DNA of 38,094 nt from a virus (taxonomy: Duplodnaviria; Caudoviricetes): positions 1 to 38,094 of the IMG/VR virus record IMGVR_UViG_3300016654_000302; one strand, 5' to 3'. Of this stretch, positions 15,106 to 19,868 are shown piece by piece. Within the stretch, counting starts at the first letter, position 1. Each line of letters opens with the position of its first letter. The notes beneath the pieces are model-generated. The model saw only the letters and a program-made list of their open reading frames with translations. It made no database searches and was not told where the DNA came from. A program made the position numbers and the translations under genes.

Positions 15106-16728
15106 ATGGCCGACACCCCCGCCCTGGTCGATATTCACGGCCGTCCGCTTCGGGCGCCGGCATCGCCCGCGCAGCTGGCCCAGATCGTGGCCCGGCCGAC
15201 GACCACCGGTGTCCGGCAGGCGTGGAACGCCGCCACCGTTGCCAGCGGCCTGACGCCCGAGCGGTTGGCCAGCATCATGATGCGCGCCAGCGAGGGCGAC
15301 GCGCACGACTACCTGACCCTCGCCGAGGAAATGGAAGAGCGGGACTGGCACTACGCCTGCGAGCTGGGCAAGCGGAAGCTGGCGGTGCTGGCGCTGGACC
15401 GGCTGGTCAAGCCCGCCTCGACCGATGCGATAGACGTCCAGATCGCCGAGGCCGTGAAGGAAGAGATCGTCCAGGACGAAGCATTCGAAGACCTCATGGC
15501 CGGGTCGCTCGACGCCCTCGGCAAGAGCTTCGCCGCCGTCGAGATCGGCTGGCAGACGGGCAAGCGCTGGGTCCCCAACGCCTACGCCTGGCGTGATCCC
15601 CGCTGGTTCCGCTGGGACCGCGAGACCGGCCGCGATCTCCGCCTGCTGGACGAGGCCGACATGGCCAACGGCATCGATCTGCCCGCCTACCAGTTCGCCA
15701 TCCACCTTCCGCAGCTGAAGATGGGCCTGCCGATCCGGGGCGGTCTGGCCCGGCTGGCGGCCTGGGCGTTCCTGTTCAAGTTCTACGACGTCAAGGATTG
15801 GGCGGCCTTCGCCGAGAGCTTCGGCCAGCCGCTGCGCCTGGGCAAATACGACGCCCGCGCCACGCCCGAGGACGTCGACATCCTCTATCGCGCCGTCGCG
15901 ATGATCGGCACGGACTGCGCGGCCGTCATCCCGAAGTCGATGGAAATCGAGTTCGTCAAGAGCGACACGACGTCGTCGACCGACCTCTATCAGCGCTTCG
16001 CGGACTGGCTGGACAAACAGGTGTCCAAGGCCGTGCTGGGGCAGGCCGGGACCGCCGACATGCAGTCGGGCGGCGGCTATGCCCAGGCCAAGGTTCTGGA
16101 CGGCGTCCGGGCCGATCTGACCGAAAGCGACGGCAAGCAGCTGGCGCGCACGATCCGCCGGGACGTCTTCGAACCCTTCGTTCGGTTCAACTACGGCCCG
16201 GACCACAAGACCCCGCTCTTCGTGCTGGAGACGCCCGAAACCGAGGACCTGAAGAACTTCGCCGAGGCCGTCACGCCCTTCATCGACCGGGGCCTGAAGG
16301 TGCGGTCATCGGAGGTCCTGGGCAAGTTCGGTCTGTCCGCGCCCGAAGCCGAGGATGAGGTGCTGACGCCCAAGCCGACCGGCGCCGGCGCACCCGGCCC
16401 GACGACCGTCGCCCTGAACCGCCGGACCTTCGGCGGGGCTTGTGGCGGGCCGGGCTGCGAAGGCGTGGCGCGGAACCGCGGCGCCCTCGATCGGGATCGT
16501 ATGGACGATCTGGCCGACGATCTGCTGGACGGCTGGACCGAAGACCTGAACCCGCTGGTCGAGCCCTTCGAACAGCTGGCGGCGAAGGCGGGCAGCTATG
16601 CTGACTTCGAAGCCGGACTGGATGCCGTCGCCGCCACGATGGACCCGACCGCGCTAGCCCGCTCGCTGGGCGCCGCTCTGTTCAAGGCCCGCGCCCAAGG
16701 CGACGTGCACGACGACCCGGCGGCCTAG
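15106..16728 (+). CDS. Portal protein (Mu gp29/DUF935)
   Basis: LAEEMEERD, GLARLAAWAFLFK, FGQPLRLGKY, SKAVLGQ. Confidence 0.93.
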   Translation: MADTPALVDIHGRPLRAPASPAQLAQIVARPTTTGVRQAWNAATVASGLTPERLASIMMRASEGDAHDYLTLAEEMEERDWHYACELGKRKLAVLALDRLVKPASTDAIDVQIAEAVKEEIVQDEAFEDLMAGSLDALGKSFAAVEIGWQTGKRWVPNAYAWRDPRWFRWDRETGRDLRLLDEADMANGIDLPAYQFAIHLPQLKMGLPIRGGLARLAAWAFLFKFYDVKDWAAFAESFGQPLRLGKYDARATPEDVDILYRAVAMIGTDCAAVIPKSMEIEFVKSDTTSSTDLYQRFADWLDKQVSKAVLGQAGTADMQSGGGYAQAKVLDGVRADLTESDGKQLARTIRRDVFEPFVRFNYGPDHKTPLFVLETPETEDLKNFAEAVTPFIDRGLKVRSSEVLGKFGLSAPEAEDEVLTPKPTGAGAPGPTTVALNRRTFGGACGGPGCEGVARNRGALDRDRMDDLADDLLDGWTEDLNPLVEPFEQLAAKAGSYADFEAGLDAVAATMDPTALARSLGAALFKARAQGDVHDDPAA

Positions 16729-17910
16729 GTGACCGCGTTCAGCTTCGGCTCCGATCCGTCGCCCGAGGTCAGCGCCTATCTTCGGCAGAAGGGCGACCGG
16801 CCCGCGTTCCGCTGGAGCGAGGTCTGGGGCGAGGAACACGCCTACGCCTTCACTGTGGCCAAGGCCGTCCAGGCCGAGGTGCTGAAGGCGATCCGCACCA
16901 GCCTGCAGAAGGCCATTGATGAGGGCGTCCCTTACGAGGCCTGGGCGCGCGACCTGAAGCCCGAGCTGCAACGCCTCGGCTGGTGGGGTGTCCAGACCGT
17001 CGCCAATCCCGAGACCGGCGAGCGCGGCCCGGCCGAGCTGGGCTCGCCCCGTCGCCTCGGGATTATCTACCGGTCGAACCTCCGCAGCGCGCGCGCGGCC
17101 GGGCAGTACGAACGATCGCAACGGACCAAGGCCGTCCTGCCGTTCTGGCTCTACGGCCTCGGCCCTTCGGTGAAGCACCGGCCGGAGCATGTCGCCAAGG
17201 AAGGTATGGTCCTGCCGGTCGACGACCCGGTCTGGTCGGTCTGGTTTCCGCCGAACGGGTGGGAGTGCAAATGCTGGGTGCGCCAGATCACGAAATCCGA
17301 GGCGTTGCGCCGGGGCGTGACCCCCAGCTTCGACACGCCGACGACGACCTTCCGCCGGACGCGCGATGACGGTTCAGTGGAGCGCGTCCAGGTCCCGGTC
17401 GGGATAGATCCCGGTTGGGCCTCCAATCCGGGCATGAACCGGGCGAAGACACTGATGACCAATATGGCTGACCGGCTGATCGCCACCGGCGAACCGGCCG
17501 CCCGCGCCCTGATGACCGATGTCTGGGCGGGCTCGACGCCCGAGGCCTTCGCGCGCCTGCCGGGCCGGTTCTTCGCCCCGGCCGCCGTGGCGCCGCGTCG
17601 TCTTCAGGAGACCTTCGCGACCGAGGCCCTGCTGGTCATGATCGGAAGCGACACCCTCCGGGGCAAGCTGGAGAAGCACGGCACGGGATCGCGCGGGTTG
17701 AAGGCGTCGGACATCGGGCGGCTTCAGGCTGTCCTCGATCGCGGCGAGCTGGTCGAGCGGGAGGGGAACCGAGCCGTCTACATCCTGAACGACGGCGACG
17801 GCTGGTATCAGGCGGTGATGAAGGTGTCGGCTTCGGGCGAGTTGATCGTGGCGTCCTTCTACCCGATCGCGGAACGGGCGGCGCGGCGCCGGTCGGCAAG
17901 GGGAGGATGA
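16729..17910 (+). CDS. MuF minor head protein with C-terminal BECR/PBECR-like nuclease domain
   Basis: HAYAFTVAK, RRLGIIYRSN, RPEH, PPNGWECKC, GIDPGWASNPG; ~130-aa extension with KLEKH...DIGRLQAVL...WYQAVMKVSASGELIVASFY. Confidence 0.85.
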   Translation: MTAFSFGSDPSPEVSAYLRQKGDRPAFRWSEVWGEEHAYAFTVAKAVQAEVLKAIRTSLQKAIDEGVPYEAWARDLKPELQRLGWWGVQTVANPETGERGPAELGSPRRLGIIYRSNLRSARAAGQYERSQRTKAVLPFWLYGLGPSVKHRPEHVAKEGMVLPVDDPVWSVWFPPNGWECKCWVRQITKSEALRRGVTPSFDTPTTTFRRTRDDGSVERVQVPVGIDPGWASNPGMNRAKTLMTNMADRLIATGEPAARALMTDVWAGSTPEAFARLPGRFFAPAAVAPRRLQETFATEALLVMIGSDTLRGKLEKHGTGSRGLKASDIGRLQAVLDRGELVEREGNRAVYILNDGDGWYQAVMKVSASGELIVASFYPIAERAARRRSARGG

Positions 17911-17912
17911 CC

Positions 17913-17978
17913 GGGCGGAGGGTCGTCAGCCCCTCACGGCGCGAACGCCGGGAAACGAATGGCTCGCCGCAGTCGCCC
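17913..17978 (+). ncRNA. Candidate structured RNA (multi-stem junction with pseudoknot) directly after the MuF stop
   Basis: GAGGG/CCCTC stem, CGGCG-CGAA-CGCCG hairpin, loop TCGT complementary to ACGA (17955-58), closing GGCG/CGCC or GGGCG/CGCCC. Confidence 0.5.
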
Positions 17979-18107
17979 TTCACATAGCGCATCGGCGGCG
18001 CAAAATCGACCCCCGCAAAAAGCGCCTCAGGAGGGCGGTGGCCATCCCGTCCGGCGCAGTGATACCGAAAACCGGCTTGAGGGCGGCCTTAGCGGCCTCA
18101 AACGGCC

Positions 18108-18755
18108 TTAGGCGGTGTCGCCGCCGTCACCTTCGAGCATCAGGCTGCCATCTTCGTCCTGGGCGATCTGGATCGAATGGAAGTTTCGCAGCAGCTCCGC
18201 GTAGTTCCATCCATCGTTCGCAAACACGAACGGCGGCAGGCCAGCATCCTCACGGAGTTGAGCTGCCAAGTTCCACGCCTCAACGCCAACCCGAGCGGCG
18301 CCGGCCGAATGGATCATAAAATATCGATCCGAGCCAAACCCAGCTGCGTTCGCTGCACCTGATATGAAGCCCTGCACGAGCGGAACGCGTGAACTGAAGT
18401 CCCCGATCTCTGCCGCTCGGACCGCCCCTAGCCTAGTCCAGGTGACGGCGGGCCATTTGGGAAAATCCGGGGTTCGCTTCACGAATTCCGAGTGACGTTG
18501 AGAGTTGTCGGATATGGCACCTGCGCAGTCCTGGGCGTAGGCCTCCAGATGTCGAGCCAAGGCCAAGCTGGTGAATGCCATTTCGCCCTTGGCGGCGATC
18601 TCCGCCGCATCTCGCGCAGCGTTTTCGCCTTCGATCCGGTCCGCCCTTTGGCGTCGATAGATTCGTTCGGCTTGACGCTGTTGCAGCCAGCCGCCCAAGA
18701 AGACGCCGAACAGAGCCAGGACGGCCGGGCCGAGAGCGGTCAGGAAAGGTGTCAT
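18108..18755 (-). CDS. Antisense moron: membrane-anchored hypothetical protein (215 aa)
   Basis: Opposite strand to head genes, visibly more AT-rich; N-terminal TM helix followed by a charged helix. Confidence 0.78.
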   Translation of the reverse strand: MTPFLTALGPAVLALFGVFLGGWLQQRQAERIYRRQRADRIEGENAARDAAEIAAKGEMAFTSLALARHLEAYAQDCAGAISDNSQRHSEFVKRTPDFPKWPAVTWTRLGAVRAAEIGDFSSRVPLVQGFISGAANAAGFGSDRYFMIHSAGAARVGVEAWNLAAQLREDAGLPPFVFANDGWNYAELLRNFHSIQIAQDEDGSLMLEGDGGDTA

Positions 18756-18839: not shown

Positions 18840-19868
18840 ATGAAGACCGCCGCGTCCAGCCCCCAAACTGACCTTCGCAACCCGACGCTCGCCGCCGGTG
18901 AAGCCGTCGCGCTGAACGTCGAGGGCGGCTCCGCCCCCGAGTGGATCGAGCTGATCCCGGCGGGCGAGGTCATCACCGGCTTCGACAACCGCAGCTGGAC
19001 CAACCCCGATCCGCAGGCCGTGGTCGACGCGACGCCGGTTGGCGTCCGGCCGCTGGTCATCGACTTCGAACACGCCACCCAGGTGCGCGGCGAACAGGGG
19101 CTGGACGCCCCGGCCGCCGCCTGGGTCGACACCCTTGAGGTCCGCGACGGCGCGATCTGGGGCCGGGTCTCCGACTGGACCGCCCGCGCCCGGCAGATGG
19201 TCGAGGCCAAGGAATACCGGCTGATCAGCCCGGTCTTCGGCTTCACCCCCGACACGCGCCGGATCACGCGCCTGATCTCGGCGGCGCTGACCAACTTCCC
19301 GAACCTGTCCCTGACCGCCCTCAATCGCGAGGACCGGCAGGGGCTTCACCGCGAGCAGGAGACCCCTTTGACACTCGCTGAACGACTGGCCGCCGCCCTC
19401 GGGCTCGCGGCCGCTGCGACTGACGACCAGATCGTCACCGCCGCCACCGAGGCCGTCGCACGCAACCGCGCCGGTCCCGACCTGTCCAGCTTCGCGCCTC
19501 GCGCCGATCTGGACGCCGCCCTGAACCGGGCGACCACGGCCGAGGCCTCGCTCAAGGTTATGCGCGAAGCCGACCAGACCCGCGCCGTCGACGCCGCCAT
19601 CTCGGCCGCCATGGACGCGGGCAAGGTCGTCCCGGCCTCCGAAGAAACCTACCGCGCCCTGTGCCGGGAGGAAGGCGGTCTGGAGCGCTTCAACGCTCTC
19701 GTCGCCACCCTGCCGGTAATCGCCGGGGCCGCCGAGACCCGCGCGGCCAACCGCGTCGAGGAGAAGACCTCGGGCGCCTCGTCCCTGACCGAGGAAGAGC
19801 GGGCGGTCTGCCGTCAGCTCGGCCAATCGGAAGAAAGCTTCGCCAAGGGCAAGGCGGGGGGTAACTGA
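18840..19868 (+). CDS. Mu gpI-like prohead protease / scaffold
   Basis: PEWIELIPAG, IDFEH, APAAAW, WTARA, EYRLISPVF, ALTNFPNL. Confidence 0.92.
   Translation: MKTAASSPQTDLRNPTLAAGEAVALNVEGGSAPEWIELIPAGEVITGFDNRSWTNPDPQAVVDATPVGVRPLVIDFEHATQVRGEQGLDAPAAAWVDTLEVRDGAIWGRVSDWTARARQMVEAKEYRLISPVFGFTPDTRRITRLISAALTNFPNLSLTALNREDRQGLHREQETPLTLAERLAAALGLAAAATDDQIVTAATEAVARNRAGPDLSSFAPRADLDAALNRATTAEASLKVMREADQTRAVDAAISAAMDAGKVVPASEETYRALCREEGGLERFNALVATLPVIAGAAETRAANRVEEKTSGASSLTEEERAVCRQLGQSEESFAKGKAGGN
19368..19868 (+). CDS. Putative in-frame scaffold protein (Mu gpZ equivalent)
   Basis: AGGAGA RBS then in-frame TTG at 19368, right after the protease domain. Confidence 0.55.
   Translation: MTLAERLAAALGLAAAATDDQIVTAATEAVARNRAGPDLSSFAPRADLDAALNRATTAEASLKVMREADQTRAVDAAISAAMDAGKVVPASEETYRALCREEGGLERFNALVATLPVIAGAAETRAANRVEEKTSGASSLTEEERAVCRQLGQSEESFAKGKAGGN

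What the first reader, a model, noticed from the sequence alone, without database searches (positions are those of the whole stretch)
16729..17990. MuF-PBECR nuclease followed by a pseudoknot-capable RNA instead of an immunity gene: candidate RNA-antitoxin system
Seen: MuF has a ~130-aa C-terminal extension with a BECR/PBECR-like pattern (KLEKH helix, beta meander ending ELIVASFY). Two nt after its stop starts a 66-nt element almost fully accounted for by pairing: GAGGG(17918-22)/CCCTC(17931-35); CGGCG-CGAA-CGCCG (17937-50); loop TCGT(17923-26) pairing with ACGA(17955-58) as a pseudoknot; closure GGCG/CGCC(17965-68) or GGGCG/CGCCC(17974-78). No convincing co-directional immunity ORF follows. 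Established: toxic long MuF proteins normally have a downstream protein immunity gene; type III TA RNases (ToxIN, CptIN, TenpIN) are neutralised by pseudoknotted RNAs. Inference: a virion-delivered RNase held in check by, processing, or packaged with its own 3' RNA.
Basis: partly seen in the sequence, partly recalled or inferred. Interest (0 to 1): 0.82.

Follow-up and report, generated by a model that had tools for sequence, protein, structure and literature searches.

The report
tRNA-shaped RNA antidote to phage toxin
Behind a phage head-protein gene ending in a predicted RNA-cutting toxin domain lies, on the opposite strand, a conserved tRNA-shaped element with a predicted promoter of its own; it comes and goes with the toxin domain across many phages, also sits alone in arrays in bacterial genomes, and is likely an RNA antidote used where a protein antidote would normally be.

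Summary
The element is real but was read on the wrong strand. On the minus strand (17974-17909) it folds like a tRNA without a D stem: acceptor-like stem, 5-bp T-like arm, a third hairpin and loop-loop pairing, starting about 6 nt after a predicted sigma-70 promoter whose position is conserved (33 of 38 loci). Stems covary strongly; a longer type B cloverleaf has a 5-bp covarying D-loop/T-loop pairing (88 of 99). The MuF tail models confidently as a BECR nuclease (K316-H317, S376). The RNA is found at 98 of 101 MuF genes with this tail and at 0 of 25 with short, non-BECR or truncated tails; all 16 separate tail-less clades lack it. It also flanks stand-alone BECR genes, and occurs as orphan arrays of different variants in bacterial genomes where no toxin domain was found, like poly-immunity loci. 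No conserved immunity ORF, Rfam family or paper was found. Best reading (about 0.6): a trans-acting, tRNA-mimicking RNA antitoxin for a virion-carried tRNase. It fails the type III genetic definition. Expression, toxicity and binding are untested.

The parts
16729..17910 (+). MuF (minor head / DNA pilot) gene, 393 aa, between portal (15106-16728) and protease I (18843-19868) of a Mu-like phage
   Evidence: Pfam Phage_Mu_F aa 54-184, E 2.3e-15; Portal_Mu and Mu-like_Pro neighbours; phrog_220
17572..17901 (+). C-terminal BECR-fold domain (aa ~282-391), predicted RNase/tRNase
   Evidence: AF2 model pLDDT 91.7, pTM 0.84; the top 7 VIA hits are all BECR toxins; distant homologs hit Pfam PBECR3 below cut-off
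17674..17679 (+). K316-H317, predicted catalytic helix residues
   Evidence: invariant in 14 close homologs; His in 76 of 101 tails; numbering
17854..17856 (+). S376 on the last strand, predicted second active-site residue
   Evidence: S or T in 96 of 101 tails; matches the PBECR site described in PMC5512222
17909..17974 (-). tRNA-shaped non-coding RNA, type A (66 nt core; true 3' end unknown)
   Evidence: minus-strand MFE equals the covarying fold; model R1 50.4 bits
17965..17974 (-). 5' strand of acceptor-like stem P1 (pairs with 17909-17917; one bulged base)
   Evidence: 8 of 9 P1 pairs compensatory
17951..17964 (-). single-stranded D-arm replacement; 17958-17955 pairs with T-like loop 17926-17923
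   Evidence: helix 2; own-partner pairing 3.53 nt vs 3.05 swapped, max 3.33 of 300
17937..17950 (-). hairpin P3 (anticodon-arm position; UUCG loop here, variable in homologs)
   Evidence: 5 of 5 pairs compensatory
17918..17935 (-). T-like arm, 5 bp with 8-nt loop, adjoining the 3' strand of P1
   Evidence: 4 of 5 pairs compensatory; loop 8-9 nt in 56 of 66 loci
17909..17917 (-). 3' strand of P1; overlaps the last two bases of the MuF stop codon
   Evidence: stem ends within -4..+8 nt of the stop in 58 of 66 loci
17981..17986 (-). predicted -10 box (TATGTG) of the RNA's promoter
   Evidence: weak alone (p 0.095 vs shuffles) but in the conserved position
18004..18009 (-). predicted -35 box (TCGATT), 17-nt spacer
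   Evidence: homolog consensus TTGAAW
18108..18755 (-). moron ORF, 215 aa; not part of the system
   Evidence: homologs in only 3 other of 153 loci; no Pfam or PHROG hit

Best explanation
A tRNA-shaped RNA gene lies convergent to a phage MuF gene whose tail is a predicted tRNA-cutting BECR nuclease, and the RNA likely acts in trans as a decoy antitoxin that binds and blocks its cognate nuclease. Shown here: the fold and its covariation, the conserved promoter position, strict gain and loss with the domain, pairing with stand-alone BECR genes, and orphan arrays of different variants. Inferred: the RNA is made from a housekeeping promoter in the lysogen and soon after DNA entry; MuF is a late protein packaged in the head and delivered with the DNA (established for MuF proteins in general, PMC5512222 passages); the tail attacks host tRNA as its structural neighbours colicin D and the CDI toxins do; the RNA offers an acceptor/T helix with a base-paired elbow and no CCA end, so the nuclease binds it unproductively; variants are toxin-specific, so bacteria and other phages collect arrays of them as stolen immunity.
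For: Fold. Type B D-loop/T-loop 5-bp pairing intact in 88 of 99 with 14 different sequence pairs, swapped-partner null 26.9, max 36 of 1000. Promoter: best sigma-70 site ends 12-16 nt before the inner end of P1 in 33 of 38 type A loci, mean score 14.0 vs 10.2 on the plus strand and 9.9 in shuffles; 12-17 nt in 81 of 97 type B loci, 12.9 vs 10.0. Strand: G-U vs A-C in stems 27:12, 38:10, 45:1; all 49 model hits are on the minus strand. Linkage: 98 of 101 main BECR tails, 12 of 17 divergent tails, 0 of 14 short MuFs, 0 of 6 non-BECR tails, 0 of 5 tails that lost the KH helix; 16 of 16 separate tail-less clades lack it. Reverse test: 13 of 15 type A and 85 of 112 type B pattern hits in viral contigs are convergent to a BECR tail. 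Stand-alone BECR genes with the RNA: L478 (96 bits) and L279. No conserved protein downstream other than the next head gene. Orphans: 5 of 14 non-seed genomes with hits carry 1-5 copies without an adjacent toxin and 4 of those 5 have no detectable domain anywhere; three of the four copies in array L407 are closest to RNAs of three different toxin loci (L121, L081, L098) whose tails are at most about 24% alike; L365 has the same site with two of the four copies. Nuclease; BECR CDI toxins are tRNases, several cutting the acceptor end (PMC9086364 passages; PMC9071432 abstract).
Against: 22 of 25 tails without the His keep the RNA, so they may be inactive and still need it (or use Lys, as some CDI toxins do). 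Over all pairs, RNA distance tracks the N-terminal MuF domain better than the toxin tail (rho 0.48 vs 0.26; partial 0.44 vs 0.12), although nearest neighbours agree better with the tail (45 vs 30 of 73). Type B orphans occur in complete phage records with neither MuF nor this domain (L245, L248, L282, L342), and 10 of 23 model-confirmed metagenome hits have no adjacent BECR gene, which also fits a role independent of the toxin. L139 keeps the RNA behind a MuF that lost its tail. The type A loop-loop pairing is mostly an invariant CG/CG (1 of 3 pairs compensatory). The window's own promoter is weak. Fold Z-scores are modest (best 7.1) and BECR proteins also cut mRNA and rRNA, so the tRNA target is inferred.
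Confidence: 0.6

Rival explanations
1. The RNA and the BECR domain are partners in one effector rather than toxin and antidote: the domain binds or matures the RNA, and the RNA itself is the weapon, for example a tRNA decoy that soaks up host tRNA-cutting defences or EF-Tu.
For: His-less tails keep the RNA (22 of 25); type B orphans in MuF-less phages often sit in sense orientation among small genes; head-to-tail copies without separate promoters in L454 would need processing.
Against: Orphans persist as arrays of different variants in bacterial genomes without the domain, which is what immunity, not a phage weapon, predicts; loss of the KH helix removes the RNA in 5 of 5 cases.
Confidence: 0.2
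2. An antisense regulator: the convergent transcript reads into the MuF 3' end and destabilises or blocks the mRNA (type I-like), the tRNA shape serving only as a stable 5' cap.
For: Convergent arrangement with the stem ending at the stop codon (58 of 66 within -4..+8 nt); no terminator is predicted at the RNA's 3' end; a C/U-rich tail with CCTC or CTCC follows in 38 of 66 (no control run).
Against: The structured core lies almost wholly outside the coding sequence; orphan and array copies keep the fold and promoter but have no toxin mRNA to pair with; in L058, L076 and L204 a whole gene is inserted between RNA and MuF.
Confidence: 0.1
3. One reading: a pseudoknot in the 3' end of the MuF mRNA on the plus strand that is processed into a type III-like antitoxin.
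For: Watson-Crick stems and the loop pairing exist on both strands; a plus-strand late transcript must pass through the element.
Against: Conserved minus-strand promoter at a fixed distance from the stem; G-U bias; the plus-strand MFE is a different fold; orphan copies carry the same promoter with them.
Confidence: 0.04
4. A DNA-level or passive feature (terminator, recombination site, decayed tRNA gene) that hitchhikes next to MuF.
For: L110 and L118 carry a canonical T loop and are called tRNA by relaxed ARAGORN, so the family may derive from tRNA; one orphan lies near a tRNA gene.
Against: Compensatory changes in every helix and in a tertiary pairing, G-U pairs, own promoter, and absence in 16 of 16 tail-less clades.
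Confidence: 0.03

Closest known systems
MuF polymorphic toxins of temperate phages (Jamet et al. 2017, PMC5576092)
   Same: MuF domain with a C-terminal toxin-like tail in the head module of a temperate phage; tails are exchanged among related MuFs.
   Different: [quoted passage not shown] The paper leaves open whether the unknown tails of proteobacterial MuFs (Ct_MAD) are toxins; whether this tail equals Ct_MAD was not tested.
PBECR domains (Iyer et al. 2017, PMC5512222; Pfam PBECR1-5, MuF_C)
   Same: [quoted passage not shown]
   Different: The window's domain hits no Pfam PBECR model; the passages read mention no RNA partner or immunity and propose mRNA or crRNA targets.
Type III toxin-antitoxin systems ToxIN, CptIN, TenpIN (PMC5086642)
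   Same: An RNase predicted to be held in check by a structured non-coding RNA; phage pseudo-ToxI mimics are a precedent for stolen RNA antitoxins.
   Different: Type III is bicistronic, with tandem repeats upstream of the toxin, a terminator between, and H-type pseudoknots; here a single tRNA-shaped RNA is downstream, on the other strand, with its own promoter, and the nuclease is BECR-fold and attached to a virion protein.
BECR tRNases of CDI systems and colicin D (CdiA-CT NC101, Kp342, EC869; PMC9086364, PMC9071432)
   Same: Nearest solved folds (Z 4.5-6.6); several cut the tRNA acceptor end, the part the RNA imitates.
   Different: All are neutralised by proteins; delivered by secretion, not in a phage head.
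Polyimmunity loci (Zhang et al. 2012, PMC3482391)
   Same: Tandem, same-orientation arrays of diverse antidotes without toxins, varying in number between relatives.
   Different: Known arrays encode proteins; these encode 65-80 nt RNAs.
tRNA mimics such as the tmRNA tRNA-like domain and bacterial Y RNA YrlA (recalled, not from a call)
   Same: Acceptor-like plus T-like helix with a reduced D arm.
   Different: No Rfam match, no CCA, non-canonical T loop, elbow closed by Watson-Crick pairs.

Membership tests
PBECR / BECR nuclease | Core of an N-terminal helix followed by a four-stranded meander | tested here: met
   top 7 hits are BECR toxins (7vd7 Z 7.1 rmsd 3.1 over 84; BrnT 6.8; CdiA-CT NC101 6.6; colicin D 5.2)
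PBECR / BECR nuclease | [quoted passage not shown] | tested here: met
   H317 and S376; definition from PMC5512222 passages
PBECR / BECR nuclease | Match to a named Pfam PBECR model over its cut-off | tested here: not met
   no hit for the window protein; homologs reach at best 28.7 bits on PBECR3, cut-off 30
PBECR / BECR nuclease | RNase activity | not testable with these tools
   needs an assay
MuF polymorphic toxin-immunity pair | MuF domain with C-terminal toxin domain in the head module of a temperate phage | tested here: met
   (portal, protease, transposase)
MuF polymorphic toxin-immunity pair | Small immunity ORF directly downstream | tested here: not met
   the two short plus-strand ORFs of the window have no homolog in 153 loci; the only widespread downstream protein in 101 loci is the next head gene
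Type III toxin-antitoxin | Bicistronic operon, antitoxin repeats upstream of the toxin, terminator between | tested here: not met
   single copy, downstream, opposite strand, own promoter; no terminator found
Type III toxin-antitoxin | Antitoxin folds as an H-type pseudoknot | tested here: not met
   three- or four-way junction with loop-loop pairing
Type III toxin-antitoxin | Toxin of the ToxN, CptN or TenpN family | tested here: inconclusive
   no Pfam hit; not among the 50 listed fold matches, which does not exclude it
Type III toxin-antitoxin | RNA neutralises the toxin protein by binding it | not testable with these tools
   needs rescue and binding assays
tRNA | 7-bp acceptor stem adjoining a 5-bp T stem | tested here: met
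   P1 7-9 bp in 54 of 66 loci; 7 + 5 consensus
tRNA | Recognised by tRNA models; D stem, canonical T loop, constant anticodon loop, CCA | tested here: not met
   ARAGORN default 0 calls in the locus regions and the window; no Rfam tRNA hit; CCA at 74-76 in 0 of 66
Convergent type I toxin-antitoxin (txpA/RatA-like; features recalled) | Small hydrophobic peptide toxin | tested here: not met
   393-aa MuF-BECR protein
Convergent type I toxin-antitoxin (txpA/RatA-like; features recalled) | Long 3' overlap of antitoxin RNA with toxin mRNA | tested here: inconclusive
   the structured core barely overlaps the CDS but the RNA's 3' end is unknown
Bacterial Y RNA (YrlA) | Match to the Rfam Y RNA models | tested here: not met
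Bacterial Y RNA (YrlA) | Neighbouring Ro60 gene | not tested
   no search was run

The most novel reading that the evidence does not exclude
A phage dead-man's switch with RNA immunity: the virion injects a tRNase together with its DNA, and the antidote is a tRNA mimic that needs only transcription, so it still works while translation is being poisoned. If the host destroys the incoming DNA the antidote is never made and the cell is punished; bacteria answer by hoarding arrays of toxin-specific antidote RNAs, an RNA counterpart of poly-immunity loci, in one case beside CRISPR-like repeats.
Probability: 0.3. Interest if true: 0.95.

Novelty: categorically new. Interest (0 to 1): 0.88.

Why it matters
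Every polymorphic-toxin immunity factor in the papers read here is a protein, and the RNA antitoxins they describe that bind proteins are type III pseudoknot repeats. A tRNA-mimicking antidote with its own promoter would be a new way to disarm a nuclease. It would explain why so many proteobacterial MuF tails have no immunity gene and were left as of unknown function, and it gives a direct test of the open question of what MuF/PBECR tails do on infection. Orphan arrays mean bacteria may carry an unannotated RNA layer of phage-toxin immunity. Natural toxin-RNA cognate pairs in many variants would also be a tractable model for protein recognition of tRNA shape.

Tried and rejected
Rfam: no hit over the element, over 11 type A/B/other loci or over the orphan copies in 10 loci. 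ARAGORN default: none. A loose DNA pattern returned 50 loci of which only 4 were true. Single-sequence folding energy is not significant. Moron as immunity protein: rejected, homologs in 3 other of 153 loci. Short plus-strand ORFs 17959-18111 and 18038-18319: no homologs. Foldseek on PDB: nothing at E <= 0.001, best BrnT 0.012. No RNA holder was listed in the sequencing-run search, so no reads were laid. blastn of one type B RNA: no match in cultured phages or E. coli genomes, one weak plasmid hit inside a gene taken as chance. Earlier scan notes: nothing relevant. Ribozyme and riboswitch readings (HDV-like, twister, pistol, xrRNA; recalled topologies) were considered and dropped: helix order differs and Rfam gave no hit. 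Stop-codon readthrough signal: dropped, since stop-to-stem distance varies from -17 to +62 and the RNA is on the other strand. Literature searches that found no description. Type B model R2 found nothing in 25 loci with short, non-BECR or shortened tails.

Full report
Setting. The window is a Mu-like phage record: transposase, terminase, portal 15106-16728, MuF 16729-17910, a minus-strand ORF 18108-18755, protease I 18843-19868. Closest named relatives are from Brevundimonas. Pfam finds only the MuF domain (aa 54-184).

The protein tail. A profile search of 1.84 billion representatives gave 51 relatives, with a conserved KH helix and a Ser/Thr on the last strand; 6 of the 50 scanned hit PBECR3 weakly, all below cut-off. 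The domain folded alone with a 90-sequence alignment gives pLDDT 91.7. Its 7 best structural matches are all BECR toxins: 7vd7 Z 7.1, BrnT 6.8, CdiA-CT NC101 6.6, then a Serratia CDI toxin, colicin D, Kp342 and O32:H37 at 5.2. These Z values are modest and Foldseek gave nothing at E <= 0.001, but the agreement of the list and the placement of H317 and S376 fit the PBECR active site described by Iyer et al. (PMC5512222, passages). Activity and target are inferred.

The element is real. One sequence does not fold better than shuffles, so I gathered MuF loci: 80 from viral contigs (best 80 of 582 confirmed), 80 from genomes (best 80 of 570), plus 4 cultured phages. A 33-sequence alignment chosen by eye shows 86.9% of cells paired vs 69.8% in shuffles, 18 of 22 pairs with compensatory change, score 0.518 vs 0.193. 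A model built from it found 49 matches in 84 further sources, a few of them duplicates of seed loci, all on the minus strand and near the MuF end; their model-fitted alignment has 97% of cells paired.

It lies on the other strand. Behind the element, read on the minus strand, is a sigma-70-type promoter (consensus TTGAAW, mostly 17 nt, TATWTT). In 33 of 38 hand-picked loci its -10 box ends 12-16 nt before the inner end of the outer stem, so transcription would start at about the first base of a 7-9 bp stem; mean score 14.0 vs 10.2 for the same DNA on the plus strand and 9.9 for shuffles. The window's own copy is weak (p 0.095) but correctly placed: -35 at 18009-18004, -10 at 17986-17981, start near 17974. 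G-U pairs outnumber A-C mismatches on the minus strand 27:12, 38:10 and 45:1 in three alignments (the second was fitted to the minus-strand model). The minus-strand MFE of 17974-17909 is the covarying fold; the plus-strand MFE is not.

Shape. Read this way the RNA is: acceptor-like stem (7-9 bp in 54 of 66), an unpaired D-arm replacement, a hairpin at the anticodon-arm position with a variable loop, one base, a 5-bp T-like arm with an 8-9 nt loop (56 of 66), then the closing strand. In type A it is short and weakly supported (1 of 3 pairs compensatory; 3.53 paired bases with the own partner vs 3.05 swapped). A longer type B is a full cloverleaf (20 of 33 pairs compensatory), and its 5-bp D-loop/T-loop pairing is intact in 88 of 99 distinct copies with 14 different sequence pairs, against 26.9 expected after swapping partners (13 of the 112 distinct pattern hits could not be parsed). 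It is not a tRNA: no CCA in 0 of 66, no default ARAGORN call, no Rfam hit. L110 and L118 carry a canonical T loop, hinting at a tRNA origin.

It follows the nuclease. Of 153 distinct loci, 7 were dropped for short context. The RNA was scored by model hit, type B pattern or a generic promoter-plus-helix detector (threshold 22.5, set from shuffles with 99th percentile 22.2 and maximum 24.0). It is present at 98 of 101 main BECR tails (3 displaced by an inserted gene; one, L107, a weak hit inside an extended ORF; the negative L186 looks positive by eye), 12 of 17 divergent tails, 2 of 2 truncated or frameshifted genes, and 0 of 14 short MuFs, 0 of 6 non-BECR tails, 0 of 5 tails that lost the KH helix and 0 of 1 gpG fusion. 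On a tree of the MuF domain these negatives fall in 16 separate clades, all without RNA. Phage Mu, whose tail is described as inactive, has gene G directly behind and no RNA. Starting from the RNA instead, 13 of 15 type A and 85 of 112 type B pattern hits face a BECR tail; of 24 leftover records searched, 7 hold the tail nearby or elsewhere. Two stand-alone BECR genes without MuF have the RNA (L478, L279). No conserved protein follows except the next head gene, and the moron occurs in 3 other loci only. Jamet et al. report a small ORF after 89.4% of MuF toxin genes and leave the unknown proteobacterial tails open (PMC5576092, passages).

Orphans and arrays. In metagenomes 25 of 89 pattern loci were confirmed by the model; 13 of 23 distinct ones face a BECR gene. 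L407 holds four different copies in a row, each behind a promoter-like site, with no toxin; three are closest to RNAs of three different toxin loci, and the related site L365, downstream of what reads as an asparaginase-like gene (label recalled), has two of the four. In two samples of 151 genomes, 14 non-seed genomes had hits: 9 beside a BECR gene and 5 with orphans, 1 to 5 copies each; 4 of the 5 have no detectable domain, though they may be incomplete. This matches the description of protein polyimmunity loci (PMC3482391, passages) and argues for action in trans through shape, since orphans have no toxin mRNA to pair with.

Mechanism. Shown: fold, covariation, promoter position, co-loss, stand-alone pairs, arrays. 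Inferred: the RNA is expressed in the lysogen and early in infection; MuF carries the nuclease in the head; the nuclease cuts tRNA like its CDI and colicin neighbours, several of which cut the acceptor end (PMC9086364 passages; PMC9071432 abstract); the CCA-less mimic binds and blocks it; variants are toxin-specific. I put this at 0.6. Against it: 22 of 25 His-less tails keep the RNA; all-pairs RNA distance follows the MuF domain better than the tail (rho 0.48 vs 0.26), although nearest neighbours follow the tail better (45 vs 30 of 73); type B orphans exist in complete MuF-less phage records. These keep a co-effector or decoy role at 0.2 and antisense control at 0.1.

Known systems. It would work like a type III antitoxin, but fails that definition: not bicistronic, not upstream, not repeated, not an H-type pseudoknot (PMC5086642, passages). 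It is a MuF polymorphic toxin without protein immunity. Ten full-text searches found no description; the 2026 BECR preprint has no mention of non-coding RNA in its main text (its supplements are closed). The library lacks most subscription papers. A survey of 10,006 candidate viral RNAs (PMC10690425, passages) could contain these models unrecognised: three of its six text files and three large files were not searched. PMC3475682 (pseudo-ToxI) was seen as a search listing only.

Verdict. A real, widespread, apparently undescribed non-coding RNA family tied to phage BECR nucleases; function predicted, not shown. Interest 0.88.

Noticed in passing
L135:2760-2870 (phage RR1-B) and L195:3766-3880: MuF tails of the PBECR2 family are also followed by a minus-strand promoter-like site and a different long hairpin with a terminator-like end, possibly a third RNA type.
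   Followed up: partly
L110:3711-3785 and L118:3694-3770, minus strand: Variant with a canonical T loop, called tRNA by relaxed ARAGORN, behind a divergent tail; the most tRNA-like members.
   Followed up: partly
L471:1500-2185 (G355:C8): Orphan array of at least three RNAs ends about 150 nt before two copies of a CRISPR-like repeat at the contig end (weak CRISPR-DR16 hit below cut-off).
   Followed up: partly
L454:1440-1672 (G216:C5): Three different RNA copies nearly head to tail without separate promoters, which would need processing from one transcript.
   Followed up: no
L076:3690-4208 and L204:3720-4234: A moron gene is inserted between RNA and MuF on the minus strand, downstream of the RNA's promoter, so it may be co-transcribed in the lysogen.
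   Followed up: no
L197:3678-3894: Two tandem RNA copies, each with a duplicated promoter, differing in the loop-loop pairing bases.
   Followed up: partly
L245, L248, L282, L342, L312: Type B RNAs in near-complete phage records without this BECR domain (L312 has a short MuF); in L311 and L312 the RNA sits directly upstream of head genes in sense orientation.
   Followed up: partly
window 18108-18755 (-): Moron of unknown function with distant homologs at the same site in L002, L004 and L139.
   Followed up: partly
window 17979-18006 (+): A plus-strand promoter-like match overlaps the RNA's minus-strand promoter; may be chance or a back-to-back promoter.
   Followed up: no
L134:2685-2761 (phage POA1180): A cultured phage carries a type A RNA in the gap its record leaves unannotated.
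   Followed up: no
L216:4835-5003: C4 antisense RNA and a weak isrK-like match in the same prophage.
   Followed up: no
L217 (G035): RNA beside a BECR-like remnant whose 5' part is replaced by what reads as an insertion-sequence transposase (label recalled).
   Followed up: no
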